DNA of 64,000 nt from a virus. Under the pieces are notes generated by a model. The model saw only the letters and a list, made by a program, of their open reading frames with translations. It was not told the origin of the DNA and did no database searches. Location: positions 4,340 to 68,339 of IMG/VR virus record IMGVR_UViG_3300034068_000289, one strand, 5' to 3'. Below are positions 12,546 through 57,219 of the stretch, one piece after another. The position numbers and the translations under genes are program-made. Numbering within the stretch: position 1 is the first letter of the stretch; each line of letters begins with the position of its first letter.

Positions 12546-12547
12546 AT

Positions 12548-13039: not shown

Positions 13040-13040
13040 T

Positions 13041-42485: not shown

Positions 42486-42629
42486 TTAGTTAAAACTCAT
42501 ACCTCTGTGAGCATCTTTTGTTTTTTTAGTAAGTTTATTAAATGTAACAGTTTGTTCTATTCCAGTTACTGGACATTTTTGAATTGATGTTCGATACCCA
42601 AGAATGTGCAAGAAAAACTTCTTTATCAT
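42486..42629 (-). CDS. Small protein (47 aa, not in ORF track)
   Basis: MIKKFFLHILGYRTSIQKCPVTG...; ATGA overlap with the upstream oxygenase. Confidence 0.55.
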   Translation of the reverse strand: MIKKFFLHILGYRTSIQKCPVTGIEQTVTFNKLTKKTKDAHRGMSFN

Positions 42630-43261
42630 ATGATAGGAACCCAATGCTGCTCTGGAGATCCTTGCATATTCTTTAGTGGAGATATATCGTAGGCAATAGT
42701 AATTCTATCTTTTTCAAATGGCCAGTTACTTATTCCGTGTGCATGCCCAGTTTCTGAAATAATTGCACGATTATTAACATTTACATTCAAGAATTCTGTT
42801 TCACCAGATATAAGATACTTAGTATATGAAGGCTCTGCATTGACACAGTAGTATCCATGAAAATCAGGTGCTCCTTGACCATTTAGGTGGTCATGTAAGT
42901 AGTTGTTTGGGAGTGGCTCTGGCTTGCTATTCTTATCAGAATTAAACCATCCCTGAATCATATAGTTTTGCTCTTCAGCATTAATACCATAGTGTTCGCA
43001 TGCCTCTAGGACCATGTCCCTGATAGCCTTGTAAAGTTCTCTAATGTTCTCATTGTGGAACTGAAAGATATTATACTTTTCCCCCAACTGAGTGGTGAAT
43101 GAAGATCTATCAACTAACTCATAGTCAGAATTAGTTACCCCTGGCACATTTTCAGATGAGAGTCTTTGCTTAAGATCAAGCAAGTATGTCTCAAAGTTTC
43201 CAAGATCTAAGTCTAGGTGTCTTTCAAAAAACTTATGCTGAGGCTTCGACATCGCTATCAT
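42626..43261 (-). CDS. Putative 2OG-Fe(II) oxygenase
   Basis: GWFN...HDH...HGYY...H...RITIAYD; paralogue of 43258-43917. Confidence 0.75.
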   Translation of the reverse strand: MIAMSKPQHKFFERHLDLDLGNFETYLLDLKQRLSSENVPGVTNSDYELVDRSSFTTQLGEKYNIFQFHNENIRELYKAIRDMVLEACEHYGINAEEQNYMIQGWFNSDKNSKPEPLPNNYLHDHLNGQGAPDFHGYYCVNAEPSYTKYLISGETEFLNVNVNNRAIISETGHAHGISNWPFEKDRITIAYDISPLKNMQGSPEQHWVPII

Positions 43262-43917
43262 GCAAGAGGAATCCAATGCTGTTCTTGATCCATTCCAAAC
43301 CTTTGAATATCTCTTAGCGGAATAACGTCATATGCAACCGTAATTCTTGGACCTTCCCAATCCCAGTCTGCCATAGAGTGTGGGTGACCCATCTCCGAAA
43401 GTATTGCACGATCATTCTTGTTGTGATTCTCAATTTCTTTATCAAAAACCTTGTAGTATGTAATTGAAGGCTCTGCGCTTACAGAGTAATATCCGTGGAA
43501 GTTTGGAGCACCTGTTGGACCATGATCATGCCAGTCTAGTTTTCCTTTGCCTGCATGCGTAATGTTAAACCATCCCTGTAACATAAACTTTTCTTTTTCA
43601 AAGTCAACTCCGTAGTAATCACAAGCCTCAATAGTCATGTCTTTAACAGCCTTGTATAAATTATAAATACCAGTTGAGTGGAATTGGAAAACATTATACT
43701 GTCTCCACTTCATTGTTGACACACTATTAGATTGCTTCCATGCTTCGTTAGCCCCTACTGGAGTTACACCTACAACCTTTGCTTTTTCAATCTTTTCGTA
43801 TCTGTCCTGTAGTTCTGATGCTAGGACTGATAGATTATTATCAAGGTATCTTTCAAAAAACTTATGTGGTTGAGTGGACTTGCTCACACTCTGAATATCC
43901 GTTGGATAGTTGTTCAT
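43258..43917 (-). CDS. Putative 2OG-Fe(II) oxygenase
   Basis: GWFN...WHDH...HGYY...HPH...RITVAYD. Confidence 0.75.
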   Translation of the reverse strand: MNNYPTDIQSVSKSTQPHKFFERYLDNNLSVLASELQDRYEKIEKAKVVGVTPVGANEAWKQSNSVSTMKWRQYNVFQFHSTGIYNLYKAVKDMTIEACDYYGVDFEKEKFMLQGWFNITHAGKGKLDWHDHGPTGAPNFHGYYSVSAEPSITYYKVFDKEIENHNKNDRAILSEMGHPHSMADWDWEGPRITVAYDVIPLRDIQRFGMDQEQHWIPLA

Positions 43918-43957
43918 TATTACTCCCTTTGCTATTTATACTAGTATACCATATTGG

Positions 43958-44674
43958 TTAAAGTGGCTTTGGATTAGACCTTTTTACCATCTCATATAAA
44001 ATTATATCATGCTGGTTTAGTTCTTTAATCCTGTTAATCATTTTATCAGTTATGTCAAACCTTTTAGAGGTGCTTGAGTTAAACTTAGCATCCCTATTAT
44101 CAAAATTGGGAACAAACCCATAGTTATTGCTCATATATCTTGTAATGTCGTCAAGAAGAATATCCCTAGTCTCTACGGTGTAACAACTAACAGAGTTAAC
44201 CTTATCCTGCATAACTGATTCATCAAAGGAATAGTCTTTAAGCAGCCACCCATTCATGGTCTTGTCCATTACACTTCTAGTGTTATTAAATCTTTCTTCA
44301 TCGACTGTCCCCGTTAAAAATTTTGTTTGCATATCTGAAAGGTGTGGATATATTTCTGGGTTGTATAACCACTCGTCAAATATCTTTTCAAGTTCCTCAA
44401 AACTTTTAGAGTTTTCATACATAAAGAAAAACCAACTAATGAATCTGTCAACTGGATCTCTAAAGATAGAAAAAGATTTTAAATTTTTAATAAATAGACT
44501 AGGATAGTTTCCTAAGTGCCCAGAAATAAACTCAACATCTTTAAACATATCTTGACTGATTGGTTTATTATGATATACAACTGCCGACCTTAAACCATTA
44601 GTTTGAAAAGCCAAATGGACCCCAGATCTAATAAATAGACCTGAAGTCCTTGGCAAGTGCTGATGATAAAGGAT
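43958..44674 (-). CDS. Sulfotransferase-family protein
   Basis: The frame extends upstream of the called TTG to give H-L-P-R-T-S-G (5'-PSB-like). Also SGH, FRDPVDRFISW (3'-PB-like) and N..D..LY. Confidence 0.8.
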   Translation of the reverse strand: MLYHQHLPRTSGLFIRSGVHLAFQTNGLRSAVVYHNKPISQDMFKDVEFISGHLGNYPSLFIKNLKSFSIFRDPVDRFISWFFFMYENSKSFEELEKIFDEWLYNPEIYPHLSDMQTKFLTGTVDEERFNNTRSVMDKTMNGWLLKDYSFDESVMQDKVNSVSCYTVETRDILLDDITRYMSNNYGFVPNFDNRDAKFNSSTSKRFDITDKMINRIKELNQHDIILYEMVKRSNPKPL

Positions 44675-46035
44675 TAAACTGCCTTGTAATTGTGAACTAG
44701 CATATTTCCAGCAATGAATGTGTCAACTGGTTCCATATCAAATTTGTAAACTGTTGATGGAGTTTCATCAATTTCAATTGATGCTACTGTAATTTCATTG
44801 AACGAGTGGAAGTTATAGTCATATTCCATAACAATATCTCCTACTTCAAGAAGTCCTGTAGTTATGTATCCATAGATACCGTTGCGCTTATACAAAATTC
44901 CCTGTACTGTTGAATACTTCTTTGTGCTGTCTCCATTAATTGTCAACGTTGCTGGCATTTCTTTTTCAACTACTGAAGCAACTGTTGTTTTAACAATTTT
45001 TTGGTTATGCAATCCTGGAAGTGCCATAGTGTATGGATCAACTTCGCCTTCGTCATCCATTTCATCGAATGAGTGTGCCCAGACTTCTTGTCCAGTAACA
45101 ACATCCTTTGCAGGAATTTGGATATATGAGTCTTCTGGACCAACAACTGATACTAAAGTATCAGGAGCAATACATCCTCCTCTTCCTGGTGAGAAGCCGA
45201 ATACACCAAATGGTGAGAATCCGAATACTCCAAACGGAGAGAAACCAAATGGTGAGAATCCGAATACACCGAACGGAGAGAATCCGAACACACCGAACGG
45301 AGAGAATCCAAATGGTGAGAAGCCGAACACGCCGAATGGTGAGAATCCAAATACTCCGAATGGTGAGAAGCCGAACACTGAGAACGGTACGAATGAGAAC
45401 GTTGTAACAGATGCTGAGAATGCTGACCATTCTGACCAACCATGCTCATTGTATGCTCTTACACGATATGTCTGTGCTGTTCCTGCTTCTTGTGAAATGT
45501 TTGTTGTAAGAGCGTTAATTGTTGCAGTCTTTCCATCAGATGATTCCACCTGATAGTTAGTAATTGCTGCTCCTCCATTATCTGCTGGTGCTGACCATGA
45601 AACTGTGTCATAGGTTGCACTAGTTGGTGAAGATGCTGTAACTCCTGTTGGAGCATCTGGAACACCTGCAACACTTGCATTGGTCTGTGAAGACGATACA
45701 GATGTCGTATCCTGTGTCTCTTGTGCAAGTCTTGCTACTGCAATAATTGTGAAAGCATAAGACGCTCCCGCTCTAAGACCTGTCACTGTGTATGGTGATG
45801 AGGTTACTCCTGTAAATGTCTTTGTGCCATATATTGAGTTAGCGAAAATTGTATAAGAAGAAGGAGTGGAACCCATAGCGTTCTTATTAAATGCAACGCT
45901 GGCTGTTGAAGACATGTATGCCCCACCAAAGCCTGGTGTTACGCTTGTAATAAACGGCTGCCCTGGGGCTACACCCCAAAAACTTACTGCTGACTTGGCA
46001 CGTTTTCCGCCCTTGCCACCTTTACGAATTGCCAT
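44674..46035 (-). CDS. Fn3-domain protein with (FSPFGVFG)n repeats and a C-terminal Hint domain
   Basis: Two Fn3-like domains (TVTGL...Y.F.I.A; W.AP.DNGG..IT.Y), nine FSP repeats, then GG|CIAPDT...LVHN. Confidence 0.85.
   Translation of the reverse strand: MAIRKGGKGGKRAKSAVSFWGVAPGQPFITSVTPGFGGAYMSSTASVAFNKNAMGSTPSSYTIFANSIYGTKTFTGVTSSPYTVTGLRAGASYAFTIIAVARLAQETQDTTSVSSSQTNASVAGVPDAPTGVTASSPTSATYDTVSWSAPADNGGAAITNYQVESSDGKTATINALTTNISQEAGTAQTYRVRAYNEHGWSEWSAFSASVTTFSFVPFSVFGFSPFGVFGFSPFGVFGFSPFGFSPFGVFGFSPFGVFGFSPFGFSPFGVFGFSPFGVFGFSPGRGGCIAPDTLVSVVGPEDSYIQIPAKDVVTGQEVWAHSFDEMDDEGEVDPYTMALPGLHNQKIVKTTVASVVEKEMPATLTINGDSTKKYSTVQGILYKRNGIYGYITTGLLEVGDIVMEYDYNFHSFNEITVASIEIDETPSTVYKFDMEPVDTFIAGNMLVHNYKAV
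45187..45402 (-). repeat. Coding tandem repeat, 24- and 15-nt units (FSPFGVFG / FSPFG)
   Basis: Units differ at synonymous positions while the peptide is preserved. Confidence 0.9.
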
Positions 46036-46067
46036 ATGTTTCTCCTTTTTTTCCTATTAAATTTGTA

Positions 46068-47480
46068 TTACGCTGTCAAGTCGCCAGAAACGATCCAAGT
46101 ATCTGTATCACGCTTGATCAATGTTGCCATTGAGTAACGATCACGGAACTTGAGTCCTGGTGTTTTGAGAATTGTAACTCCTGAAGCAGCAACGATTGTT
46201 GTCTGCCCTGTGCCCTTTTGGAATACATCGATTGATGAACCAATATTGAAGGCAACTGAAGCATTTGTAGGAACTGTAACAGTGTTTGCTGATGCTGATT
46301 CCATTTCTACTACATTTCCTTCGTCTGCAAGAACTAAAGTGTAAGAAGTTGTCTTGTTATTGAATGATGCCAATGTTGCTGCTGTTAGTTCAGCCTTGCT
46401 TGCCTTTAGAGCAAGAGCATTTGTCATTGTTGTTGAGAAGTTTGCATCGCTACCAAGCGCTGCTGCCAACTCATTAAGTGTATCAAGTGCTGCTGGAGCA
46501 GATGCTACAAGTGCTGAAACTGCTGTTCCTACGAACGCTGTTGTTGCTACCTGTGTAGTATTTGTTCCTGCTGCTGCTGTTGGAGCAGTTGGTGTACCAG
46601 TGAAATCTGGTGATGCAAGTGCTGCCTTAAGATTATCTGCTGTATCTACGTATGACTTAGTTGCAAGAAGTGCTGTGTCAGCAATTCCGTGTACGTTTGT
46701 TGTGTCTGCCTCATGCGCTGCAACAGCGTCATCTGCATATGTCTTTGTAGCAAGAGCAGTTGTATCGGTAATTCCGTGTACGTTTGCTGTTGCTGAATTA
46801 TGTGTTGAGATTGCTGTTCCACGGCTTGTGGCTTCAGTTGTTCCTACTGCATCAGCATAAACCTTTGTAGCAAGAAGTGCTGTGTCAGCAATTCCGTGAA
46901 CATTAGTTTGATCTGCATTGTGAGTATTAACTTCTGCAAGTGCTGCTGCATCTGCCTTAGCCTGTGCTCCAGTTGTTGTTTCTAGAAGTGCAGTATTTGC
47001 AATTCCGTGTACATCTGTTGTGTCTGTTGAGTGAGTTCCAATCAATGTGTTAACACTTGCTGTTGTAGCAAGAAGTCCTGTATCTGCAATACCATGGACA
47101 TCAGTTGTATCTGAATTGTGTGCTGCTACCTGGGACGAAACAAAAGTAACTGCATCTGCAAGTTCCTTAAGTGTGTCAAGTGCTTCTGGTGCTGATGCGA
47201 TAAGGTGTGTAAGATATCCAAGTGGAATCTTTCCTCCGCCATCAAGTGGGGCTACGCCGTTATTTGCGCCCTTTGATGTTAGTGGGACGTAATCATCAAG
47301 AGTACCGCCCAAGTCTTCTAAGTTCTTAAAGTAGGAGAGATCTGACCATGCATTAACGCCATCACCAATTTTGAACTGGTTGGTGTCTGTCTCGTATCCA
47401 ATTTCTCCTGCTGCCAAAATTGGATCTGCTGCCGTCCATTGGGCTGCAGTTCCTCTGCGCTGTTGCATTCTAGTTGCCAT
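46068..47480 (-). CDS. Tail fibre protein with VHGI repeats and a C-terminal adaptor domain
   Basis: N-terminal RRGTAAQW...GEIGYETDT, five D/NVHGI.(D/N)T repeats, APAALDTLNELAAAL, C-terminal ATLIK...W...GDL. Confidence 0.8.
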   Translation of the reverse strand: MATRMQQRRGTAAQWTAADPILAAGEIGYETDTNQFKIGDGVNAWSDLSYFKNLEDLGGTLDDYVPLTSKGANNGVAPLDGGGKIPLGYLTHLIASAPEALDTLKELADAVTFVSSQVAAHNSDTTDVHGIADTGLLATTASVNTLIGTHSTDTTDVHGIANTALLETTTGAQAKADAAALAEVNTHNADQTNVHGIADTALLATKVYADAVGTTEATSRGTAISTHNSATANVHGITDTTALATKTYADDAVAAHEADTTNVHGIADTALLATKSYVDTADNLKAALASPDFTGTPTAPTAAAGTNTTQVATTAFVGTAVSALVASAPAALDTLNELAAALGSDANFSTTMTNALALKASKAELTAATLASFNNKTTSYTLVLADEGNVVEMESASANTVTVPTNASVAFNIGSSIDVFQKGTGQTTIVAASGVTILKTPGLKFRDRYSMATLIKRDTDTWIVSGDLTA

Positions 47481-47539
47481 TTATATTCTCCTTTTATCCG
47501 TTCTGCGGATGTCTTTCTGTACTATTATAACATCAATTT

Positions 47540-48004
47540 TTAATTGAAGTTATCTACTGCTGAACCACCATCGAATGAATATTCCCAAGTAGTTGAACTT
47601 GGAGATCCTCCATCGAGACCTGTTCCTTGCGGACTATTGAAACTTCCACCCTCACGGAATGTTGTAACAATAAATCCTGTTCCATCGATTGCTGTATCGT
47701 GGATATGCTCTGGTAGATTTAGTGTGTCATCTATTGCAGCAAGTGTTACCCATCCTGCTGAAGAATAAACATTAACTCTATTAGTTAAAGAGTCTAGCCA
47801 AAGTGCACCCACGATTGGGTTAGAAGGAGCGGTTGCACCTGAAGCCATTTGACTTGCTTTTGAATCTACATATGCCTTTGTTGCTGCATCAGTTTCAGAT
47901 ACTGGTGTTGCCACCTGTACTGTTCCCCCGAAAACCGCAGTTCCTGCGACCTGTAGTCCATTTTTTACTTTGAAGTCTTTATTGACTGTAGCCAAAGTGA
48001 TCAC
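47540..48004 (-). CDS. Short fibre/appendage protein
   Basis: VNKDFKVKNGL N-terminus shared with the 48028 gene; AATKAYVD; DGG repeats. Confidence 0.65.
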   Translation of the reverse strand: MITLATVNKDFKVKNGLQVAGTAVFGGTVQVATPVSETDAATKAYVDSKASQMASGATAPSNPIVGALWLDSLTNRVNVYSSAGWVTLAAIDDTLNLPEHIHDTAIDGTGFIVTTFREGGSFNSPQGTGLDGGSPSSTTWEYSFDGGSAVDNFN

Positions 48005-48027
48005 GCCCCTTTATTATTTTAATTTTG

Positions 48028-50121: not shown

Positions 50122-50137
50122 TTTTTATATCTCCTTA

Positions 50138-50584
50138 TTATGCCTTTAATCCCATACGTGCATAACGTACAGTGATTGGCTTGATCGCAGGGTCTGGAGT
50201 AACTGTTAAAGTTACGGTATTTCCAGTGCGAGAGACAGTAATGGTTCCCATATTCCCATCGTTGTCGATAGTTCCAAATTCGTTAACAGATACATTTACT
50301 CCGTCAACCAAGATGGTCATTTCAGTAGCATAGTATTTATTTACGCCACCAGAATTCTTAGATATAGAGATAAGGTACTTGACCATTCTCCATTCAGTTG
50401 CATCAAAGTTATCAATTACTGATGCATTTTCAATACCAGTAACGGTATTGTCGTTATTGCCAAATACGCCTGCACGTGTTGCTTGTGCTGCTGTAGTGTC
50501 AATTAGATCTTCGTAATCTGCCTGTGATGGGCGATCACCAGTCTGGAATTTTTCTTTAAGTGCTGCGAGTGATATTTGGGCCAT
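50138..50584 (-). CDS. Fibre-associated structural protein
   Basis: F.TGD.P...Y.DLID N-terminus; C-domain similar to the C-terminus of the 48028 gene. Confidence 0.65.
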   Translation of the reverse strand: MAQISLAALKEKFQTGDRPSQADYEDLIDTTAAQATRAGVFGNNDNTVTGIENASVIDNFDATEWRMVKYLISISKNSGGVNKYYATEMTILVDGVNVSVNEFGTIDNDGNMGTITVSRTGNTVTLTVTPDPAIKPITVRYARMGLKA

Positions 50585-50606
50585 GTTGTTATTATAGCAT
50601 TATTTT

Positions 50607-50864
50607 TTACAGAATATAGTTGCTGTATCCAATAATGGCTACTCCTATCGGTGCTGGATTCTGCCTTGTATATCCATCTAAACCTATGTTAGATATACGC
50701 AGTCTGAAAGGCAAACTTTCATTTGCCAATACTTTTTTTGGTACTGATATTATTTCAAAGGCAATTGTATTTGCCTGATTGATTGTTAAGTCTGCAACTG
50801 GATTAAGATTTATTAGCCCAACAGCAACTGCTGGAATAATTGTAGAAACCAGTCTACTCGCCAT
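50607..50864 (-). CDS. Small structural protein
   Basis: TAATG-coupled; ends PIGVAIIG. Confidence 0.55.
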   Translation of the reverse strand: MASRLVSTIIPAVAVGLINLNPVADLTINQANTIAFEIISVPKKVLANESLPFRLRISNIGLDGYTRQNPAPIGVAIIGYSNYIL

Positions 50865-51271
50865 TAAACCGTTCTATCAGTTACTTCTGCAATGACGTTC
50901 ATAACGCCTCTGCAAACAGTCCAAACCACTACTGGGTCTGATAACTGTACGTCAAAGATATCTCCTGTTGCTAAAAGTTTACATTGTCCTGGTGTTAAGT
51001 ATACTGTAAATTCCCCTGAAAGATCAAACGCTGTTTTTGTTGGAACGGTTGAAAATAATAAAGATGCTCCACGTCTAAAATCTGCCTTAATTGAATAGTC
51101 GTTTGGATTAATGGCAACCTGTTTATCATCTTCAACATAGATTCTAAATGATGCGCTATCGCCTTTTACAACAGTCCACCTTACAATTGGAGGTGCTGCT
51201 CCAATTTCAATCTCGCCATTAGCATTAGTTGCCTGAGATGATGTAACTGTAGTTGTTCTTAAAGTTGGCAT
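50864..51271 (-). CDS. BppU-like baseplate/anchor domain protein
   Basis: VKGDS...FDVQL...G...V..EVT; paralogous to the 56846 and 58016 genes. Confidence 0.6.
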   Translation of the reverse strand: MPTLRTTTVTSSQATNANGEIEIGAAPPIVRWTVVKGDSASFRIYVEDDKQVAINPNDYSIKADFRRGASLLFSTVPTKTAFDLSGEFTVYLTPGQCKLLATGDIFDVQLSDPVVVWTVCRGVMNVIAEVTDRTV

Positions 51272-51289
51272 GTTTAGATTATACCACGA

Positions 51290-51820
51290 TTACGAGAGGC
51301 CAGCAGCGAGTGCGCCCCAAGTACCATTTCCTTTTGCCTGAACTATTACTACTCCTGTAGTTGCAGCGTGTCCAACAATTCCTACTGCTGCTCCACCAGA
51401 ATCAGGACGAGTCTTTGTTAGTCCCCCGCCAGTTGCAACATATAGAACATCTCCTGCTAAAAATGAACTTGTATTTACTCCTTCAACAACTCCAGCAACT
51501 ACAACAACTCCATTAGAGTTATTTCCTAAAGATGTTTTCGTCAAACCTAAAATTGGTTTTGTAATTATTGGCGTAGAAAGATCAATCTTAGTTCTAACCG
51601 TACCGTTTGCATCTACATTTGATCCTACAGCATAAACTGGATACCCTGCAGGAATCGTACTACCTGTTTCATTTCTTACAAGAATCTCAAAATATGAGAC
51701 GCCAAGGGGTGGAAGAATTGTCTCTAGTCTATCAACAATAACTTTAATATCATTAGTTATATCAACAGGATCCGAGTCTTCTGGATAAGGTATTGAGTAC
51801 TTAATCGAGTCTTTTGCCAT
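51290..51820 (-). CDS. Structural protein (fibre/capsid decoration-like)
   Basis: Y.IPYP...D..DI N-terminus; GD.LYV...GGLT.T.P motif. Confidence 0.55.
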   Translation of the reverse strand: MAKDSIKYSIPYPEDSDPVDITNDIKVIVDRLETILPPLGVSYFEILVRNETGSTIPAGYPVYAVGSNVDANGTVRTKIDLSTPIITKPILGLTKTSLGNNSNGVVVVAGVVEGVNTSSFLAGDVLYVATGGGLTKTRPDSGGAAVGIVGHAATTGVVIVQAKGNGTWGALAAGLS

Positions 51821-51846
51821 GATAATTAATTATACCACGCCTAAAC

Positions 51847-51886
51847 TTGACTTTTGGCACCAAACCCAGTAAAATTATGTTATACT
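51847..51886 (+). promoter_or_regulatory. Sigma-A-type promoters for the transglycosylase
   Basis: TTGACT-17-TAAAAT (51847-51875) plus TGtTATACT (51878-51886). Confidence 0.65.
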
Positions 51887-51934
51887 TATCAGTAGACACC
51901 TAACAAGGTGTTATTGTTTTCTAAGGAGGAAACT

Positions 51935-52489
51935 ATGATTAAATGGATCGAAAGAAACAAGGAAATCATCAGCATACTCAGTATTAGTCTGTTGATTGGA
52001 ACATCAATAAACTCTGCTAATGCTAATAATACGAAAAATAATTTAAGCCTGGAACAGGCTCAAGAAGCATCAAACGCCTCGAAAGAGGTTTTTTTGGTTT
52101 CTAAAGCAAATAAACTAGAGAGTTTTGAGAATAAGACATCTCTAACAGATTTAGAACTAAAAGAACTTCTAGGCCTGGTTGGCTTCAAGGGCAAAGACCT
52201 AGTTGTTGCTTGGGCTATTGCAAAAAAGGAATCCAATGGTCGTCCACTAGCCTTTAATGGTAACCATAAAACTGGAGACTCTTCATATGGTATGTTTCAA
52301 ATCAACATGATTGATTCTCTTGGTCCTGACCGCAGAGACAAGTTTGATCTTGAGTCTAATGCCGAACTCTTCAACCCCGTAAAAAATGCAGAAATTGCAT
52401 ACTATATGTCTAGGGGTGGGGAAAACTGGTCTTCTTGGAAGGGTATTACCCCTAAAACTAAAGAGTGGATGCTTAAGTTCCCTAAGTAG
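51935..52489 (+). CDS. Exported lytic transglycosylase (SLT/lysozyme-like)
   Basis: Signal-peptide-like N-terminus; AIAKKES catalytic Glu, YGMFQIN, NP..NA..A, WSSW; AAGGAGG RBS before ATG 51935. Confidence 0.85.
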   Translation: MIKWIERNKEIISILSISLLIGTSINSANANNTKNNLSLEQAQEASNASKEVFLVSKANKLESFENKTSLTDLELKELLGLVGFKGKDLVVAWAIAKKESNGRPLAFNGNHKTGDSSYGMFQINMIDSLGPDRRDKFDLESNAELFNPVKNAEIAYYMSRGGENWSSWKGITPKTKEWMLKFPK

Positions 52490-52491
52490 TT

Positions 52492-53085
52492 TTACTTACA
52501 AAAGGAAATAGCAGCATACTTTCTTCCACTTGTTATTGGAAGAACTCTATGAACATAATCTACCGATGAAGGGAAGATCAACAGATCTCCTGCAGACGGC
52601 TTAAAGGGTGTGCCAATATGATCCCTAAACTCTACCTCTCCGCCCTCATAGTCGTCGTTTAGGTAATAAACCATTGATACTAAGCATGGGTGAGGGGCTC
52701 CATTGTCTGAATGCCATGTAAGTTTTTGAGTTTCTTCATACGACAGCAACTCCCAGGCTTCTCTTTCTACAATCTTAAATCCGTATTCTTTAATAAAATC
52801 AATCAATGCAAGAGACGTCTGGCTAATTATTTTTTGATTAAGTTTTACCTTTTCTAGTCTTAGATCTATCCCAGCAATCGACTTATCTGCTTTGCCTGTG
52901 AATAAACTAAAAACGGTACAAGATCTTAGATTTGTATCGTACTGATGGTTATTAATTGTGGCATTTCTAAATCCAGCATCTGGATGCTTGACAGTAATTT
53001 CATTGGCTGCCTCAATAATTGACATTGGAGTTTCAGATATATTGTGGTATACCACTATCTTGTCCCCTAGTATTGTTTTTTTCAT
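52492..53085 (-). CDS. Prolyl-4-hydroxylase-like 2OG-Fe(II) oxygenase
   Basis: WHSD, YLNDDYEGGE, GDLLIFPS, HRV, G.KY. Confidence 0.9.
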   Translation of the reverse strand: MKKTILGDKIVVYHNISETPMSIIEAANEITVKHPDAGFRNATINNHQYDTNLRSCTVFSLFTGKADKSIAGIDLRLEKVKLNQKIISQTSLALIDFIKEYGFKIVEREAWELLSYEETQKLTWHSDNGAPHPCLVSMVYYLNDDYEGGEVEFRDHIGTPFKPSAGDLLIFPSSVDYVHRVLPITSGRKYAAISFCK

Positions 53086-53093
53086 TTTGATCC

Positions 53094-53681
53094 TTATCTA
53101 AACCAGTTTGGCATTGAATATTTTGTACCCGCTATTACTTCTTTTGCATAATGAGAAAATAGATTTGTTGATGGAAAAACTAAAAACTCATCTTTTTTTG
53201 GCTTTAATTCTAAGTCTATATATTTAAAATTTATTTCTCCCCCAAGGTAATCATCATTAATATAGTATACCGTAGACACTTGTCTTGGATATGCCCTGGA
53301 GGCATCTGTATGCAATTTAAAAAAATCCCCAACCTCATACTTTAATAAGGCCCAGCCTTCTCCCTCTAAATCAAAATATCCATAACTATTTTGATAGTCA
53401 TTAAGGCATTGTTTGACTGCAGCATCTACCGTATTTTTTAAATTGGATACCGCCAAAGATACATCTTCTTCTTTGTAAATTCCATTGAGTCCAAAAACTG
53501 ATCCTTGGCGCAATTCTGGTATTACTGTTGCAATATTGCCATTGCCTCGACCAGTTGTTGTTTTGCTCCAAGAAATTTTGCCATCTGTTACAAGTTTAGC
53601 AAGGGCATTAACATAATCAATAGATCCTGGAATCAAACCAGTGTAGCCTACAACTCCTGGAAAGTATTCAACCTTGTTCAT
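53094..53681 (-). CDS. Prolyl-4-hydroxylase-like 2OG-Fe(II) oxygenase
   Basis: HTD, YINDDYLGGE, FPS...H, GTKYS; TAATG-coupled to the Hint gene. Confidence 0.9.
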   Translation of the reverse strand: MNKVEYFPGVVGYTGLIPGSIDYVNALAKLVTDGKISWSKTTTGRGNGNIATVIPELRQGSVFGLNGIYKEEDVSLAVSNLKNTVDAAVKQCLNDYQNSYGYFDLEGEGWALLKYEVGDFFKLHTDASRAYPRQVSTVYYINDDYLGGEINFKYIDLELKPKKDEFLVFPSTNLFSHYAKEVIAGTKYSMPNWFR

Positions 53682-55135
53682 TATTTTGCCATATACATGT
53701 TGTGTACCAGAATATCTGATGCAAAATACATATCCTTCACTTCAGTATCAATTGAAACAACATTAATTAAATCGCTTATATACTCAATGGATTCAACCAG
53801 GACAGTATCTCCTTCACTATCAACTATGTAGTCTCCAACGACAACGCCTTCCATTGGAGAGAATCTCCAGAAGCCGCCTCTCTTAATAAACATTATGTGC
53901 TCATATGTTACATTTAATTTATTATTAAGGACATAGTGCCCTGGGTTAGTTAACTTCTTAATGTCTGTAACAGTTGTTGTTGTAAATGTTGAATCATCAA
54001 TATTATTAGAAGTCCATGAATCTAGAATTGTAGGATATTCCTCATCTGGCAATGACGAAACGCTCAGAGATAGCAATTCGTCTCCAATAACCAAATCTTC
54101 GATGTTCTTGTATGTTCTATCTGAAAGAAGAATAGGAGTTCCATAAGCCAAGCATCCATAACCGCCATAACCGCCCGTATTAATAGTATTAATAGTATTA
54201 ATAGTATTAATTGTATTGATCGTGTTAATTGTGTTAATAGTATTAATTGTATTAATAGTATTGATAGTATTAATAGTATTGATGGTGTTAATTGTGTTAA
54301 TTGTGTTAATGCTGTTATTACATGAATCTATACACTCATATCTTGTTCCAATTTGCTGTCCTGAACAGTTTAAGACCTTAAGTCTCATTGCTACACCACA
54401 GCACTCTGCTCGAAAAACAGTTCCTGATGGGATCTCATCGTCATTACATACGTTAATTGTGTTAATAGTGTTAATAGTGTTAATCGTGTTAATTGTATTA
54501 ATTGTGTTGATTGTATTAATTGTGTCTGGACAGTTACAGGAAACACAATTTGTAGTGTATGTCGTAGTTGGTGTTCCAACCCATCTAATCTGGCTTGCAT
54601 CTGCTGGACATCCTGCTGGGCAGAATGGAAAACTTGGGCACATTAAGAATCTTGCTTCTGCTTGACCGCTTATAGTCTTTAGTGTTCCATCAGTTCCTTC
54701 ACAGTAGTATTCTGTTCTAGTTCCAAGAGACATCCAGGGTCCATATTCGTAAGGGCATGTATTGGTGTTGATTGTGTTGATTGTGTTGATTGTGTCAATT
54801 GTGTTAATTGTGTTAATCGTATTAATTGTGTCAATTGTGTTAATTGTGTTAATTGTTGCAATTGTATTAATCGTGTTAATGGTGTTAATTACAGGAACAT
54901 AAGAATAGTAGGAAATAGATATAGTTGTTTCATAATCTACTGCAGTTCCACCAGGGATTGACTGTGAAGCAACCTTTTGATCTAGGCTAGCAGTTGGAGT
55001 TGTTACTGGGGTGCTAATAAGTGCAACACCTAGTCCAAGATTTTGTAAAGATGTCATTGCATCTCCATATATGAAAGTCGATAAATCTGGTACGACCACC
55101 ATACCTTTTCCAAAAAGCCCCAGTGTGGTTAACAT
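53681..55135 (-). CDS. PASTA-like + (INT)n repeat + Cys-rich protein with a C-terminal Hint domain
   Basis: VVVPDL...A...L..LGL...V.SQS...G PASTA-like domain; three INT repeat blocks; G|CLAYGTPI...TYEH...VGD...LVHN. Confidence 0.85.
   Translation of the reverse strand: MLTTLGLFGKGMVVVPDLSTFIYGDAMTSLQNLGLGVALISTPVTTPTASLDQKVASQSIPGGTAVDYETTISISYYSYVPVINTINTINTIATINTINTIDTINTINTINTIDTINTINTINTNTCPYEYGPWMSLGTRTEYYCEGTDGTLKTISGQAEARFLMCPSFPFCPAGCPADASQIRWVGTPTTTYTTNCVSCNCPDTINTINTINTINTINTINTINTINVCNDDEIPSGTVFRAECCGVAMRLKVLNCSGQQIGTRYECIDSCNNSINTINTINTINTINTINTINTINTINTINTINTINTINTINTINTGGYGGYGCLAYGTPILLSDRTYKNIEDLVIGDELLSLSVSSLPDEEYPTILDSWTSNNIDDSTFTTTTVTDIKKLTNPGHYVLNNKLNVTYEHIMFIKRGGFWRFSPMEGVVVGDYIVDSEGDTVLVESIEYISDLINVVSIDTEVKDMYFASDILVHNMYMAK
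54176..54310 (-). repeat. 9-nt coding tandem repeat, (INT)x15
   Basis: Counted directly; synonymous variation between units. Confidence 0.9.
54452..54523 (-). repeat. 9-nt coding tandem repeat, (TIN)x8
   Basis: Counted directly. Confidence 0.9.
54764..54889 (-). repeat. 9-nt coding tandem repeat, (I[N/A/D]T)x14
   Basis: Counted directly. Confidence 0.9.
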
Positions 55136-55144
55136 CTATAAGGC

Positions 55145-55795
55145 CTACGCTATCAAATCGCCAACAAGGATCCAGGTGTTCTCTTCTATTTTAATAAGTG
55201 TTGCTCCTGAGTATCTTGCTGCAATCTTCTTATTAGAATTCTTGCTCTGAATAGTTACTCCATTGGCTCCTGAAATAGATGTAAGGCCAACTCCATAACG
55301 AATAATATCAAGTCTTTGGCCAATTGCAAATGGAGTTGTGCTATTTGCTGGAACAACAACTTCATTAAGTGTATCTGAGTTAGCAATAATTGTTCGGCCA
55401 GCATCTTCTAGTGTAATAGTGTATGTTGCTGTATTTGTTTTTGAAAGAAGCAGGGTTGAGTCTGAGTGTGATCTCCAATTAGTTCCATCAAAATACTGAA
55501 TTTGGTTTATTGGTAATCCCGCTGCATCGTTTCTAACAAAACAAACAATTCCTTTTTTGTTTTCTGATGAAACACCAGTAAATGCCAAATCTCTTGCTGC
55601 TGGATTTAAGAAATTATTTACTCCTGCTTTTGCTTTAACTACAGACTCAAATGTTACTGTAGTTGAAAATTGTTGATCTGCTGACCAAGTATATGCTGCA
55701 CCAGTATTAACTGCACCAGCAATTGGGTGCCATTTATCTGTGGCTGAACTATATATGTATGCTACTTTAGATTCTGAATCAATAACTTTTGGCAT
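55145..55795 (-). CDS. Short fibre protein with the same C-terminal adaptor domain as the 46068 gene
   Basis: YT..L.D.G...VP.N....F.IG..D..G.G...ATLIK...W...GDL; start moved to the TAATG-coupled ATG at 55795. Confidence 0.75.
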   Translation of the reverse strand: MPKVIDSESKVAYIYSSATDKWHPIAGAVNTGAAYTWSADQQFSTTVTFESVVKAKAGVNNFLNPAARDLAFTGVSSENKKGIVCFVRNDAAGLPINQIQYFDGTNWRSHSDSTLLLSKTNTATYTITLEDAGRTIIANSDTLNEVVVPANSTTPFAIGQRLDIIRYGVGLTSISGANGVTIQSKNSNKKIAARYSGATLIKIEENTWILVGDLIA

Positions 55796-56247
55796 TAGGC
55801 ACCAACCTTTACAAACGAAGTAGTAGAAGAATCGTAAACCCACATCTCAAGTGGAGACGTTCCCTTTTTAATCCAAATTAAACCATTAACAAGTCCAGTA
55901 GTTGGGGTTGCTGACTGATACTGAGAGGTTGCAAATTGAATTCCGCTTCCACCAGTAAGATCTGAGTCTACCCAAATCATTCCATCAACAATAGAAGATG
56001 GTTCATTTGCTGTATAGGTGCTTCCAATTCCTTTTGCATTAATTGCTGCAATGTCAGTTTTAATATCTTTAATGTGACCTACAAGAGATGGCCTAACAAT
56101 GTCTGCCTCTGTTGATGGGGGAGTCTTTGATCCATAGTGATAAATTCGGAGGGCTTCCTGAATGTCTGCAGCCTCGTCCATTCCAGGAACCTTTGTATTA
56201 AATACGCCTGTTCCGTTATCTGTGTTGTCTATGTTTTTATTTGCCAT
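55795..56247 (-). CDS. Fibre/appendage protein
   Basis: P....G.IW repeats; ADIQEALR.YHYG N-terminus. Confidence 0.6.
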   Translation of the reverse strand: MANKNIDNTDNGTGVFNTKVPGMDEAADIQEALRIYHYGSKTPPSTEADIVRPSLVGHIKDIKTDIAAINAKGIGSTYTANEPSSIVDGMIWVDSDLTGGSGIQFATSQYQSATPTTGLVNGLIWIKKGTSPLEMWVYDSSTTSFVKVGA

Positions 56248-56265
56248 TTATTTTCACCTTTTCGA

Positions 56266-56844
56266 TTATACCACAGTAATCAGAATATGAACCTTGCGGG
56301 TATCGGCTATCTGAGACCATGTCCCTCCTGAAAATTCTGCAGCCTTAATCGTAATAGGCAGAGTAAGTGTGTCATTTGTAACCGTAACCGCACCAACCGA
56401 AATAGATGAAGCGATTGGGTTAGTTCCAACAATGCTATGCTGAATGTTAAAGTTTGCAGCAGTTAGGTTTTGATTGTTTGTTAAAGATGCAATCTTTTGA
56501 ACATTGAAGGTGATTGTTCTTGATCCTTCAGAAAAAACAACGTCTAGATTTTCTGAATAAATTGCGGGATTAACTTTAAGTCTTGAAGTCCACTTGTTTC
56601 CCCCAGGCTCAGAAATATATTCATACATGTAGGTATATTCTGAATCAGCCTTAGATACATTTATTGCCCAGTCCCCAATATTTGGAACTTGACTTCCTAA
56701 AGCGCCAGAGTTGTTTGGATTCTGGTTTGAAGAAAAAATTTTGCTTCCTCTTGTGCCTGATGGACCAAAGTCAACATCTAGGTTTACAATATCTGGACCA
56801 CCAATTACAGTGATAGTGTCTGTAGATAAAAGTAGTTCTGCCAT
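56266..56844 (-). CDS. Structural protein
   Basis: G..G.RGS.I...P...GD motif seen in fibre-type proteins. Confidence 0.55.
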   Translation of the reverse strand: MAELLLSTDTITVIGGPDIVNLDVDFGPSGTRGSKIFSSNQNPNNSGALGSQVPNIGDWAINVSKADSEYTYMYEYISEPGGNKWTSRLKVNPAIYSENLDVVFSEGSRTITFNVQKIASLTNNQNLTAANFNIQHSIVGTNPIASSISVGAVTVTNDTLTLPITIKAAEFSGGTWSQIADTRKVHILITVV

Positions 56845-56845
56845 A

Positions 56846-57193
56846 TTACGCTCCAGTTACGTCTGCTGTTACAGTGACTGTTCCAGTTAGAAGTGTATAA
56901 ATTTTTGTTGCGCCTTGAGTAATTTGAACATCATACACATACTCTGTTCCAGCAGTCAATGTTCTTCCAGTGGCAGGTAAAATTGAACAAGTAATATAAC
57001 TGTTGTTTGAAGCAATGCTGGCAGTTGCTGCGACGGTAAAAGATGGATTTTCTCCACGGGATGTACTTATAGTAAAAGTTGCACCGTAGTTTAAAAGTGA
57101 GAAAATGGCACCAGAAGAATCTTTAGGGTATATGTTGAACTCATAGGTGTCACCCTTATAATAGTTAATATTGTATGTGCCTGGAAATGCCAT
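56846..57193 (-). CDS. BppU-like baseplate/anchor domain protein
   Basis: YKGDT...YVYDVQI...LL.G.VTV.ADVT. Confidence 0.65.
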   Translation of the reverse strand: MAFPGTYNINYYKGDTYEFNIYPKDSSGAIFSLLNYGATFTISTSRGENPSFTVAATASIASNNSYITCSILPATGRTLTAGTEYVYDVQITQGATKIYTLLTGTVTVTADVTGA

Positions 57194-57219
57194 TATTCCT
57201 CCTGCTTAATTATACCATG

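What the first reader, a model, noticed from the sequence alone, without database searches (positions are those of the whole stretch)
42486..55795. Duplicated module: adaptor fibre + repeat/Hint autoprocessing protein + tailoring enzymes (candidate RiPP-like virion decoration system)
Seen: the same three-part architecture occurs twice. Module A is fibre 46068-47480, then Fn3-Fn3-(FSPFGVFG)n-Hint 44674-46035, then a sulfotransferase and two paralogous oxygenases (42626-44674). Module B is fibre 55145-55795, then PASTA-like-(INT)n/Cys-rich-Hint 53681-55135, then two P4H-like oxygenases (52492-53681). Both fibres end in the same ~95-aa domain (...ATLIK...W...GDL). Both Hint genes overlap the first enzyme gene by 1 nt, and in both the repeat sits just before a Gly-rich linker and the Hint Cys1. 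Known: Hint domains form a thioester at Cys1 and cleave or ligate; 2OG-Fe(II) oxygenases hydroxylate Pro/Asn/Asp; sulfotransferases modify hydroxyls. Inference: the repeat is a precursor-like substrate that its cognate enzymes modify, the Hint domain releases or ligates it, and it is displayed at a fibre tip as a swappable adhesin or camouflage cassette.
Basis: partly seen in the sequence, partly recalled or inferred. Interest (0 to 1): 0.92.

Follow-up and report, generated by a model that had tools for sequence, protein, structure and literature searches.

The report
Phage repeat-Hint proteins with matched enzymes
An uncultured phage has two gene sets in which a fibre gene is followed by a protein with a simple peptide repeat capped by an intein-like (Hint) domain and then by hydroxylase-type enzymes, and across related phages the enzyme type changes with the repeat type, so the repeats are a testable target for these orphan enzymes, though no chemistry has been shown.

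Summary
Both three-part modules exist on the minus strand, and the two fibres share a C-terminal domain (44% identity over 95 aa, E 1e-19). Both repeat proteins end in a BIL-type Hint domain (profile vs PDB: BIL2 6Y75 at 1.4e-14, BIL 2LWY at 3.9e-14).

Among 52 non-identical Hint domains, a P4H-like gene lies within 600 bp downstream in 17 of 17 (Ile-Asn/Asp-Thr)n proteins, 10 of 10 collagen-like, 0 of 9 Phe-rich and 1 of 16 others. Close syntenic relatives with Phe-rich or (PT)n repeats at the same three sites lack both oxygenases. In the Fn3 family, 0 of 36 FG-type loci have a P4H-type first enzyme and 10 of 10 PFFP-type do.

Caveats:
- Only 2-4 phylogenetically independent contrasts exist; all are concordant but not significant.
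- The INT repeat has no proline.
- Module A's Hint lacks the block-B His.
- No chemistry is shown.

"RiPP-like" is only an analogy. This scan reported the same system earlier on other DNA. I found no paper describing it.

The parts
55145..55795 (-). Fibre B (216 aa from the ATG at 55795; the ORF is open up to a GTG at 55843). Its last ~95 aa are the shared fibre C-domain.
   Evidence: ORF. PHROG hits to the C-termini of tail and virion proteins. 44% identity over 95 aa to the fibre A C-terminus, E 1e-19. Orthologues are 216 aa.
53681..55135 (-). Module B repeat-Hint protein (484 aa): PASTA domain, three (Ile-Asn-Thr)n runs separated by Cys-rich cores, a Gly-rich linker and a Hint domain.
   Evidence: PHROG 38766 virion structural protein, E 1.3e-13.
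54914..55099 (-). PASTA domain (aa 13-74).
   Evidence: Pfam PF03793, E 4.8e-5, 23.7 bits against a cut-off of 23.2.
54758..54889 (-). INT-type repeat run 1 (aa 83-126).
   Evidence: 9-nt tandem array with 83% DNA matches. Codons vary synonymously.
54458..54520 (-). INT repeat run 2 (aa 206-226).
54176..54310 (-). INT repeat run 3 (aa 276-320), directly before the GGYGGYG linker and Cys1.
53684..54154 (-). Module B Hint (BIL-type) domain, aa 328-484. It has Cys1, block-B TYEH and a terminal HN followed by MYMAK.
   Evidence: Top PDB hit by sequence is BIL 2LWY, E 0.016. Profile A4: BIL2 6Y75 at 1.4e-14, 2LWY at 3.9e-14, inteins around 1e-6. Alignment.
53094..53681 (-). oxB2, a P4H-like 2OG-Fe(II) oxygenase whose start overlaps the Hint gene stop by 1 nt.
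   Evidence: Pfam PF13640, E 4.1e-13. TAATG junction. HxD...H...K invariant. Nearest PDB by sequence is Bacillus P4H 3ITQ, E 9e-4.
52492..53085 (-). oxB1, a P4H-like 2OG-Fe(II) oxygenase. Its clade occurs only in INT-repeat loci.
   Evidence: Pfam PF13640, E 2.7e-14. Model pLDDT 90. Fold nearest to Dictyostelium PhyA 6T8M, algal P4H 3GZE and PHD2, TM 0.65-0.69. Clade of 11 rows, all in INT loci.
46068..47480 (-). Fibre A (470 aa): Mtd_N N-terminus, HG(I/A)ADT repeats, and the shared C-domain at aa 377-470 (46071-46352).
44674..46035 (-). Module A repeat-Hint protein (453 aa): basic N-terminus, two Fn3 domains, a Phe/Gly-rich repeat, a GRGG linker and a Hint domain.
   Evidence: 22 close homologues, 83-99% identical in the Hint part.
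45187..45390 (-). Phe-rich FSPFG(VFG) repeat tract (about aa 216-283).
   Evidence: Tandem arrays of period 24/39/63 with 84-94% DNA matches. Synonymous codon variation.
44677..45174 (-). Module A Hint domain (aa 288-453). It has Cys1 (CIAPDT) and a terminal HN followed by YKAV, but block B reads TVQG instead of TxxH.
   Evidence: Top PDB hit by sequence is 2LWY, E 0.091. Alignment A4.
43958..44656 (-). Probable sulfotransferase (232 aa from a TTG start). Orthologues are 238 aa and start 6 bp after the Hint stop.
   Evidence: Pfam Sulfotransfer_2, E 3.8e-4, below the cut-off. PHROG 3347, E 7e-5. Atlas 0.95 with 178 shared features to a Sulfotransfer_2 cluster, using the L006 orthologue. PDB only E 0.81. 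Junction.
43258..43917 (-). oxA2, an oxygenase-fold protein of a large viral family with no Pfam model.
   Evidence: No Pfam hit. 789 homologues. Atlas neighbours are PF13759 clusters. Model pLDDT 84. Fold nearest to 2RG4 and 3BVC, then PHD, FtmOx1 and P4H.
42626..43276 (-). oxA1, a paralogue of oxA2 (43-44% identical).
   Evidence: Alignments A2 and A3 with conserved HDH...GHxH.

Best explanation
The window belongs to a siphovirus-type phage contig. It carries two paralogous cassettes, each with three parts:
1. A fibre protein ending in a shared ~95-aa domain.
2. A "repeat-tail" protein: a folded N-terminal part (Fn3-Fn3 or PASTA plus Cys-rich cores), then a low-complexity repeat, a Gly linker and a C-terminal BIL-type Hint domain.
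3. Enzymes matched to the repeat.

Proposed mechanism (inferred, not shown):
- During late infection the adjacent 2OG-Fe(II) oxygenases hydroxylate residues of their own repeat. The oxB1/oxB2 P4H-fold enzymes act on (Ile-Asn/Asp-Thr)n. The oxA1/oxA2 enzymes, with a probable sulfotransferase, act on FSPFGVFG.
- The Hint domain forms a thioester at Gly|Cys1 and cuts itself off, leaving the modified repeat as the free C-terminal tail of a protein that rides on the fibre.

Shown here: domain identities, intact catalytic motifs in oxB1/oxB2 and in Hint B, and co-variation of repeat class with enzyme class.
Inferred: the substrate relation, the modified residue, self-cleavage, and attachment to the fibre.
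For: Domain identities:
- Hint profile vs PDB: BIL2 6Y75/6TMM at 1.4e-14, BIL 2LWY at 3.9e-14, inteins around 1e-6.
- Across 20 Hint domains, Cys1 is invariant, and T and H of block B and the terminal HN are invariant or nearly so.
- oxB1/oxB2 have an invariant HxD...H...K in 14 of 14 sequences. The oxB1 model is closest to protein prolyl hydroxylases solved with peptide or protein substrates.

Co-variation, Hint-anchored sets:
- Viral set: 11 of 11 INT-type and 1 of 18 non-INT Hint proteins have a P4H-like ORF within 300 bp.
- With the metagenome set added, 52 non-identical Hint domains: INT 17 of 17, collagen-like 10 of 10, Phe-rich 0 of 9, other 1 of 16 within 600 bp.

Natural swap among close syntenic relatives:
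- The window, L003 and L005 have INT at all three repeat sites and both oxygenases.
- L004, L006 and L007 have FSVF[AS]F or (PT)n repeats at the same sites and no oxB1/oxB2 anywhere on their contigs.
- The window's gene is a mosaic. Its PASTA domain is 71-73% identical to the Phe-type genes and 45-50% to the INT-type genes, while its Hint is 90% identical to INT-type L003. Yet all three repeats are INT.

Co-variation, Fn3-anchored set (58 counted loci):
- FG-type, 36 loci: oxA first in 25, sulfotransferase then oxA in 8, nothing within 700 bp in 3, P4H first in 0.
- PFFP-type, 10 loci: P4H first in 10.
- (GAF)n, 3 loci: none.

Enzyme subfamilies and selection:
- The oxB1 clade (11 rows) and oxB2 clade (4 rows) occur only in INT loci.
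- Repeat codons vary synonymously, so selection acts on the peptide.

Support for a removable cap:
- 23 of 58 Fn3-family relatives lack Hint and end a few residues after the repeat.
- The collagen-type relative L157 has Hint followed by a Peptidase_S74 self-cleaving chaperone domain.
Against: - No chemistry of any kind is shown.
- After allowing for relatedness, the INT-oxygenase link rests on 2 independent contrasts (3-4 if collagen-like repeats are pooled). All are concordant, but the sign test gives p 0.25-0.5. The Phe-type genes form one clade nested in the INT clade, so the swap is probably a single event.
- Repeat, Hint and enzyme are adjacent, so inheritance as one cassette could produce the pattern without a substrate relation.
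- oxB1 looks like a prolyl hydroxylase, but the INT repeat has no proline. Position 2 is N in 231, D in 67 and A in 17 of 315 triplets. The target residue is therefore unknown.
- Tandem-Hint proteins without such repeats (L037, L039, L040) and L045 also have a P4H-like ORF 157-176 bp downstream.
- Module A's Hint lacks the block-B His, which the BIL2 authors call a key catalytic residue (PMC8616854 section 2.4, passages read).
- Several relatives have no Cys at the aligned first Hint position.
- oxA1/oxA2 have no Pfam hit, and their metal ligands are not verified.
- The sulfotransferase scores below Pfam's cut-off.
- The modules lie on the far side of the head genes from the tape-measure and minor-tail genes, so "tail" fibre rests on PHROG names only.
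- Most contigs are fragments, and ORFs in loci were called by my own script.
Confidence: 0.6

Rival explanations
1. Linkage only. The oxygenases are accessory genes, like the many orphan 2OG oxygenases of aquatic phages, that happen to sit in a hypervariable slot after the Hint gene. They act on something else, such as a host molecule, a small molecule or nucleic acid. Repeat and enzyme co-vary because they are inherited as one block.
For: - Only 2-4 independent contrasts exist.
- The slot is variable in close relatives: two oxygenases, a PF11397 glycosyltransferase, or nothing.
- A third P4H-like gene sits outside the modules beside RNR, and its clade is separate.
- The INT repeat has no proline.
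Against: - The same pairing logic recurs in separate protein families and enzyme families with no crossover: FG with oxA (0 of 36 P4H first), PFFP with P4H (10 of 10), collagen-like with P4H (10 of 10).
- The INT-Hint-oxB1 unit is attached to unrelated N-terminal bodies of 371 to 1532 aa.
- The window's mosaic gene keeps INT at all three sites.
- oxB1's nearest structures are protein hydroxylases.
Confidence: 0.17
2. The enzymes modify a different virion protein, for example the collagen-like protein at 57220-57915 or the fibres themselves, and not the repeat before the Hint domain.
For: - The window encodes a collagen-repeat protein (Pfam Collagen, E 3.5e-6).
- P4H-fold enzymes classically act on such repeats. 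PBCV-1 P4H hydroxylates Pro-Ala-Pro-Lys repeats (PMC3634087 section 7, passage read).
Against: The collagen-like protein is 96-97% conserved in L004, L006 and L007, which lack oxB1 and oxB2. What changes together with the enzymes is the repeat in the Hint protein.
Confidence: 0.08
3. The Hint domain ligates and does not merely cut. The Gly-Cys1 thioester is resolved by a nucleophile on a partner (a lysine of the fibre C-domain, or a host cell-wall amine near the PASTA domain), fixing the repeat tail covalently.
For: - The nearest solved relative, BIL2, forms an isopeptide bond from its N-terminal flank to lysines of other proteins (PMC8616854 section 2.4).
- The fibre C-domain gene lies directly upstream in most loci, and L008 fuses the two.
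Against: - 23 of 58 Fn3-family relatives have no Hint at all yet keep the repeat and the enzymes.
- Module A's Hint lacks the block-B His.
Confidence: 0.12
4. The Hint domains, at least that of module A, are inactive structural remnants that stay on the mature protein as a folded C-terminal knob.
For: - Block B reads TVQG in module A and its orthologues.
- Several relatives lack a Cys at the aligned first position, or align only from model position 16-21 onward.
Against: - Cys1 and the terminal HN are kept in module A and in its 83-99% identical homologues.
- Module B has all the motifs.
Confidence: 0.2

Closest known systems
A-type bacterial intein-like (BIL) domains: Clostridium thermocellum BIL (PDB 2LWY) and Tetrahymena BUBL BIL2 (PDB 6Y75/6TMM)
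   Same: - Best solved relatives by profile, E about 1e-14.
- About 155-165 aa with no endonuclease insert.
- Cys1, block-B TxxH (module B only) and a terminal His-Asn with no Cys/Ser/Thr after it.
- BIL2 shows that such a domain can cleave or conjugate its N-terminal flank (PMC8616854 section 2.4, passages read).
   Different: - Here the domain caps a low-complexity repeat at the C-terminus of phage structural-type proteins and is followed by only 4-5 residues.
- It travels with a hydroxylase gene.
- Module A lacks the block-B His.
- Activity is untested.
Viral and protist protein prolyl 4-hydroxylases: PBCV-1 P4H acting on Pro-Ala-Pro-Lys repeats, and Dictyostelium PhyA followed by the GlcNAc transferase Gnt1 on Skp1
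   Same: - oxB1/oxB2 are PF13640 members with an intact HxD...H...K.
- The oxB1 model's best match is Dictyostelium PhyA 6T8M.
- PF11397 GlcNAc-transferase genes occupy the same slot in L004 and L148, and follow the oxygenases in L151, L152, L155 and L156. This matches the order hydroxylase then Gnt1 (PMC3515798 section 19, passage read).
- A virus-encoded P4H that hydroxylates simple repeats is a precedent (PMC3634087 section 7, passage read).
   Different: - The window's repeat (Ile-Asn/Asp-Thr)n has no proline, so the residue attacked cannot be the classical one.
- The window itself has no glycosyltransferase.
- No substrate has been tested.
Peptidase_S74 intramolecular chaperone domains of phage tail spikes and fibres (self-cleaving C-terminal modules)
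   Same: - Same position and presumed logic: a C-terminal domain of a phage fibre-type protein that removes itself after folding (the family's function is recalled, not taken from a call).
- The collagen-type relative L157 carries a Hint domain directly followed by a Peptidase_S74 domain, E 5e-9.
   Different: - Unrelated fold and chemistry: Ser-Lys protease versus Cys thioester (recalled).
- Neither window protein has a Pfam S74 hit.
RiPP pathways with 2OG-dependent hydroxylases
   Same: Gene-encoded peptide segments next to tailoring enzymes.
   Different: - The "precursors" are 453- and 484-aa multidomain proteins with Fn3 or PASTA domains and virion-protein PHROG hits.
- I saw no leader peptide, dedicated peptidase or exporter.

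Membership tests
Hint superfamily, BIL type | Sequence or profile similarity to solved Hint/BIL domains | tested here: met
   Profile A4: 6Y75 at 1.4e-14, 2LWY at 3.9e-14, 25 PDB sequences at E <= 0.01, all intein or BIL entries. Single sequences give only E 0.016 (B) and 0.091 (A).
Hint superfamily, BIL type | Nucleophilic Cys/Ser as the first residue, preceded by a small residue | tested here: met
   G|C at aa 327/328 (module B) and 287/288 (module A). Cys1 is invariant in 20 of 20 aligned domains.
Hint superfamily, BIL type | Block-B TxxH motif | tested here: inconclusive
   Met in module B (TYEH). Not met in module A (TVQG) or its orthologues.
Hint superfamily, BIL type | Terminal His-Asn without a following Cys/Ser/Thr (BIL-like, not a splicing intein) and no endonuclease insert | tested here: met
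   LVHN-YKAV and LVHN-MYMAK. Domain lengths are 166 and 157 aa.
Hint superfamily, BIL type | Autoprocessing activity | not testable with these tools
   Needs protein expression and mass spectrometry.
2OG-Fe(II) oxygenase, P4H-like (PF13640): oxB1, oxB2 | Pfam score above the curated cut-off | tested here: met
   54.3 and 50.5 bits against a cut-off of 27.
2OG-Fe(II) oxygenase, P4H-like (PF13640): oxB1, oxB2 | HxD...H iron triad and a basic 2OG-binding residue | tested here: met
   H125, D127, H179 and K189 are invariant in 14 of 14 sequences. Assignment of their roles is from general knowledge of the family.
2OG-Fe(II) oxygenase, P4H-like (PF13640): oxB1, oxB2 | DSBH fold closest to protein prolyl hydroxylases | tested here: met
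   pLDDT 90. 6T8M, 3GZE and PHD2 at E about 1e-11, TM 0.65-0.69.
2OG-Fe(II) oxygenase, P4H-like (PF13640): oxB1, oxB2 | Proline as the hydroxylated residue | not testable with these tools
   The adjacent repeat has no Pro. The target residue is unknown.
2OG-Fe(II) oxygenase (PF13759-like): oxA1, oxA2 | Family model hit | tested here: not met
   No Pfam or NCBIfam family. Only Atlas neighbours in which 79-90% of members carry PF13759.
2OG-Fe(II) oxygenase (PF13759-like): oxA1, oxA2 | DSBH oxygenase fold | tested here: met
   pLDDT 84, pTM 0.86. 2RG4 and 3BVC at E 1e-6, TM 0.60-0.67, then PHD1/2, FtmOx1 and P4H.
2OG-Fe(II) oxygenase (PF13759-like): oxA1, oxA2 | Metal-binding triad | tested here: inconclusive
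   HDH and GHxH are conserved in 90% or more of 22 sequences. I did not map them onto the model's active site.
Sulfotransferase (PF03567/PF00685) | Family model hit above the cut-off | tested here: inconclusive
   21.1 bits against a cut-off of 22. PHROG 3347, E 7e-5. Atlas 0.95. PDB E 0.81. NCBIfam none.
RiPP biosynthetic cluster | Short precursor with leader and core, plus a dedicated peptidase or exporter | tested here: not met
   The precursors are 453 and 484 aa with Fn3 or PASTA domains. No peptidase or transporter lies among the module genes.
Peptidase_S74 intramolecular chaperone | Pfam PF13884 hit at the C-terminus | tested here: not met
   No hit in either window protein. Present only in the collagen-type relative L157.

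The most novel reading that the evidence does not exclude
Phages run a substrate-matched protein-tailoring system on their own appendages. Each low-complexity repeat class has its own co-inherited oxygenase family, with a sulfotransferase or GlcNAc transferase in some cases. This would include a prolyl-hydroxylase-fold enzyme that hydroxylates a proline-free (Ile-Asn/Asp-Thr)n tract. The BIL-type Hint thioester would then be used to attach the modified tail covalently to the fibre or to the host cell wall, and not merely to discard the cap.
Probability: 0.15. Interest if true: 0.9.

Novelty: new variant of a known kind. Interest (0 to 1): 0.72.

Why it matters
Aquatic phages carry many 2OG-Fe(II) oxygenase genes whose substrates are largely unknown (general knowledge). 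This locus and its relatives point to a concrete candidate for each enzyme family: the repeat encoded in the gene just upstream. That turns an open question into a simple co-expression and mass-spectrometry experiment.

It would also add a post-translational layer (hydroxylation, perhaps sulfation or glycosylation) to how phage appendages are diversified. It would give BIL-type Hint domains, whose natural roles are poorly understood, a defined role in virion protein maturation. Finally, a P4H-fold enzyme paired with a proline-free repeat would be of interest to enzymologists.

Tried and rejected
- Near-identical DNA in the phage collection: none.
- tblastn of the module A protein against the phage collection: none.
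- tblastn of the module B protein: only 12 records at under 33% identity (Phage NCTB and 11 Erwinia jumbo-phage records). NCTB annotates three intein-domain proteins among its fibre genes.
- Profile of oxA1/oxA2 against PDB sequences: nothing below E 0.4.
- Profile of the fibre C-domain against PDB sequences: nothing below E 0.1. I did not fold this domain.
- NCBIfam gave no family for the Hint proteins, oxA2 or the sulfotransferase.
- Complex prediction of the fibre A C-domain with the first 125 residues of the module A protein returned "no answer" (score 0.00, controls not run). This is neither for nor against binding.
- Collagen-like protein as the real substrate: rejected as the main reading because it is conserved in relatives that lack the oxygenases.
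- DNA slippage as the source of the repeats: judged unlikely to be the whole story, because codons vary synonymously. Repeat number does differ between L019 and L020, which have identical Hint domains (23 versus 31 triplets).
- Literature: searches found no paper describing repeat-Hint-oxygenase cassettes in phages. The two phage papers that mention Hint domains concern true inteins in terminase or RNR (passages read). The jumbo-phage overview does not mention them (passages). Supplements were not opened. Subscription journals are not covered.
- I did not use the single search of protein representatives, the look-up of sequencing runs or read laying.

Full report
**What is there.** The window is bases 4340-68339 of a 68,339-bp viral record estimated 63% complete. 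It encodes DNA polymerase, a DnaB-like helicase, portal, head protease, a capsid-type protein and a 2,859-aa tape measure, so it is a long-tailed phage. All genes of the finding lie on the minus strand.
- Module A: fibre 46068-47480 (Mtd_N, tail-fibre PHROGs); 44674-46035 (two Fn3 stretches, FSPFG(VFG) repeat, GRGG, Cys1 at aa 288, ...LVHNYKAV); 43958-44656; 43258-43917; 42626-43276.
- Module B: fibre 55145-55795; 53681-55135 (PASTA, three Ile-Asn-Thr runs between Cys-rich cores, GGYGGYG, Cys1 at aa 328...LVHNMYMAK); 53094-53681; 52492-53085.
- The fibres share their last 95 residues (44% identity, E 1e-19).
- The 1-nt overlap of Hint gene and first enzyme gene is true for module B (TAATG). 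In module A the first canonical start is 17 nt downstream.

**Domain identities.**
- Each Hint domain alone hits the Clostridium BIL structure 2LWY first, but weakly (E 0.016 and 0.091).
- A profile of 20 Hint domains from the window and related loci hits the Tetrahymena BIL2 domain (6Y75/6TMM, 1.4e-14), 2LWY (3.9e-14) and then canonical inteins (about 1e-6). The identity of 6Y75/6TMM as BIL2 was checked in PMC8616854.
- Cys1 is invariant. Block-B T..H and the terminal HN are invariant or nearly so. No Cys/Ser/Thr follows the Asn. These are BIL-type, non-splicing Hint domains.
- Module A's domain reads TVQG where block B should be. The BIL2 authors treat that His as a key catalytic residue (PMC8616854 section 2.4).
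- oxB1 and oxB2 are PF13640 members with an invariant HxD...H...K. The oxB1 model (pLDDT 90) is closest to protein prolyl hydroxylases (Dictyostelium PhyA, algal P4H with a (Ser-Pro)5 peptide, PHD2 with HIF peptides, Pseudomonas P4H with EF-Tu), TM 0.65-0.69.
- oxA1 and oxA2 (43-44% identical) have no Pfam model, but they belong to a family of at least 789 proteins. The model has an oxygenase DSBH fold: pLDDT 84; 2RG4 and 3BVC first, then PHD, FtmOx1 and P4H.
- The sulfotransferase call rests on three weak leads.

**The co-variation test, Hint-anchored.** A scan of viral contigs with the module B alignment gave 63 loci. I called ORFs with my own script and labelled them with HMMs built from the window's proteins.
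- I kept single, full, terminal Hint domains with at least 700 bp downstream and non-identical sequence. That left 29 rows including the window's two; 45 ORFs were dropped, as listed.
- 11 of 11 with an (I/V-N/D/A-T) run of six or more had a P4H-like ORF within 300 bp, against 1 of 18 without such a run.
- An independent metagenome scan gave 27 loci. All 10 INT-type loci had a P4H-like ORF at -10 to +46 bp. One of them, L151, is the same 8,949-bp contig as L008. The one Phe-type locus had a PF11397-like gene in that place.
- A further class appeared: collagen-like (GXY)n-Hint proteins, with a P4H-like ORF 76-567 bp downstream in 9 of 9 loci that had downstream DNA.
- Pooled, 52 rows (31 not single or full, 14 identical and 4 short were dropped): INT 17 of 17, collagen-like 10 of 10, Phe-rich 0 of 9, other 1 of 16.

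**The natural swap.** Five contigs are syntenic with the window across the whole 42-58 kb block.
- L003 and L005 have INT runs at the same repeat sites and both oxygenases.
- L006 and L007 have FSVF[AS]F and (PT)n repeats at those sites, and the Hint gene abuts the lysozyme-like gene.
- L004 has the same Phe-type gene followed by a PF11397 GlcNAc-transferase gene (E 7.6e-19).
- A search of the whole contigs found only the ox3-type oxygenase in the three Phe-type contigs, but these are 23-33% complete fragments.
- The window's gene is a mosaic. Its PASTA domain is 71-73% identical to the Phe-type genes and 45-50% to L003/L005. Its Hint is 90% identical to L003. All three repeats are INT.

**The co-variation test, Fn3-anchored.** A scan with the module A alignment gave 80 loci. 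After removing 20 duplicates and 2 with short flanks, 58 were counted.
- FG-type repeats, 36 loci: oxA-type first in 25, sulfotransferase then oxA in 8, nothing within 700 bp in 3, P4H-type first in 0.
- (PFFP)n, 10 loci: P4H-type first in 10.
- PPGFF, 3 loci: oxA in 3.
- (GAF)n, 3 loci: none.
- Other, 6 loci: none in 5, oxA in 1.
- In a tree of 131 P4H-like ORFs, the oxB1 clade (11 rows) and oxB2 clade (4 rows) are confined to INT loci, the PFFP-adjacent enzymes form another clade, and the window's third oxygenase belongs to a separate clade (FastTree only).

**How strong is this?** The raw tables have no crossover cases, but the rows are related.
- On the Hint tree the INT state needs only 2 changes. 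The Phe-type genes are one clade nested within the INT clade.
- There are 2 independent contrasts for INT, and 3-4 if collagen-like repeats are pooled. All are concordant, with sign-test p 0.25-0.5.
- Adjacent genes are also inherited together. The case therefore rests on the same logic recurring in separate protein and enzyme families, on the variety of N-terminal bodies that carry the INT-Hint-oxB1 unit (371 to 1532 aa), and on the mosaic gene. It does not rest on a significance test.
- Against a simple reading: tandem-Hint proteins without such repeats (L037, L039, L040) and L045 also have a P4H-like neighbour, and the INT repeat contains no proline. Position 2, the only position my pattern left free, is N in 231, D in 67 and A in 17 of 315 triplets.

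**What the Hint domain does.**
- 23 of the 58 counted Fn3-family relatives lack Hint and end within a few residues of the repeat (FG 15 of 36, PFFP 8 of 10). The repeat-enzyme pairing therefore does not need Hint chemistry, and a protein ending at the repeat is a viable form. This fits a removable cap.
- The collagen-type relative L157 has a Hint domain directly followed by Peptidase_S74, the self-cleaving chaperone of phage fibres.
- Ligation stays possible, because BIL2 conjugates its N-terminal flank to lysines (PMC8616854 section 2.4).

**Link to the fibre.** A gene ending in the shared C-domain lies directly upstream of the repeat protein in most Fn3-family loci. L008 fuses that domain with an INT-Hint tail. 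Whether these are tail fibres is open, because the modules are separated from the tape-measure and minor-tail genes by the head genes and the RNR gene.

**Comparison and novelty.**
- The parts are known: BIL/Hint domains, P4H-like oxygenases, and a virus P4H acting on simple repeats (PBCV-1; PMC3634087 section 7).
- In several relatives a PF11397 GlcNAc transferase follows the hydroxylase, as Gnt1 follows PhyA on Skp1 (PMC3515798 section 19).
- I found no paper describing the combination: a phage structural-type protein with a repeat tail, a Hint cap and a repeat-matched enzyme.
- Earlier agents of this scan reported the same system on other genomes. My tests here were made independently of theirs and agree.
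- I rate it a new variant of a known kind, with interest 0.72.

Noticed in passing
window 39834-40364: A third P4H-like 2OG-Fe(II) oxygenase (PF13640, E 5.9e-11) abuts the 676-aa ribonucleotide-reductase-like gene (40364-42394), outside both modules. Its clade is separate from oxB1/oxB2 and is also present in relatives that lack those two.
   Followed up: partly
window 36105-39812: A 1,235-aa ORF lies between the oxygenase/RNR genes and the portal gene, where a large terminase might be expected. It has no PHROG, Pfam or NCBIfam hit.
   Followed up: partly
window 57220-57915: Collagen-like protein (Pfam Collagen, E 3.5e-6, just under the cut-off) at the upstream end of the fibre block. It is 94-97% conserved in all five syntenic relatives.
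   Followed up: partly
window 11343-26460 versus 42626-57915: The fibre/Hint modules are separated from the tape-measure, minor-tail and tail-protein genes by the head genes and the RNR gene, so these "fibres" may not be classical tail fibres.
   Followed up: no
window 44656-44677: The sulfotransferase-like frame is open from the Hint stop codon, but its first ATG/GTG/TTG is the TTG at 44656. Orthologues are 238 aa and start 6 bp after the Hint stop, so the window's gene may use an unusual start or be slightly shortened.
   Followed up: partly
L004:5915-6868; L148:2563-3382; L151:3906-4946; L152:2502-3434; L155:4036-4968; L156:2673-3605: PF11397 GlcNAc-type glycosyltransferase genes occupy the slot after the Hint gene. 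They stand alone after Phe-type genes and follow the oxygenase(s) in four INT-type loci. Pfam gave E 7.6e-19 to 2.2e-39 for the three I scanned (L004, L151, L155); the others match L004's protein at E 1e-20 or better.
   Followed up: partly
L157:1-3825 (also L158-L166 and L030): Marine-type contigs encode ~1,275-aa proteins with long collagen repeats (E 9e-61), a Hint domain and then a Peptidase_S74 chaperone domain (E 5e-9), with a P4H-like gene 76-567 bp downstream. Only L157 was scanned against Pfam.
   Followed up: partly
L019 and L020 (6536/6464-10612): Two contigs with identical Hint domains differ in repeat number: 23 versus 31 INT-type triplets, in proteins of 1,358 versus 1,382 aa. 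Repeat length is therefore polymorphic.
   Followed up: no
L037, L039, L040-L044, L043, L048: Proteins of 648-775 aa carry two or three tandem Hint domains, with ...THN directly followed by the Cys of the next domain. Some have a P4H-like ORF 161-176 bp downstream.
   Followed up: no
L001 (GenBank LT598654, Phage NCTB, 94173-110637): A 258-kb phage annotates three "intein domain" proteins interleaved with tail-fibre genes. The one matching the window is 32.5% identical over the Hint domain.
   Followed up: no
L008:285-3074: A single 929-aa protein joins the N-terminus of the window's 55795-56247 gene product, the fibre C-domain, (PT)n and Cys-rich segments, an INT run and a Hint domain. This fuses parts that are separate genes in the window.
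   Followed up: partly
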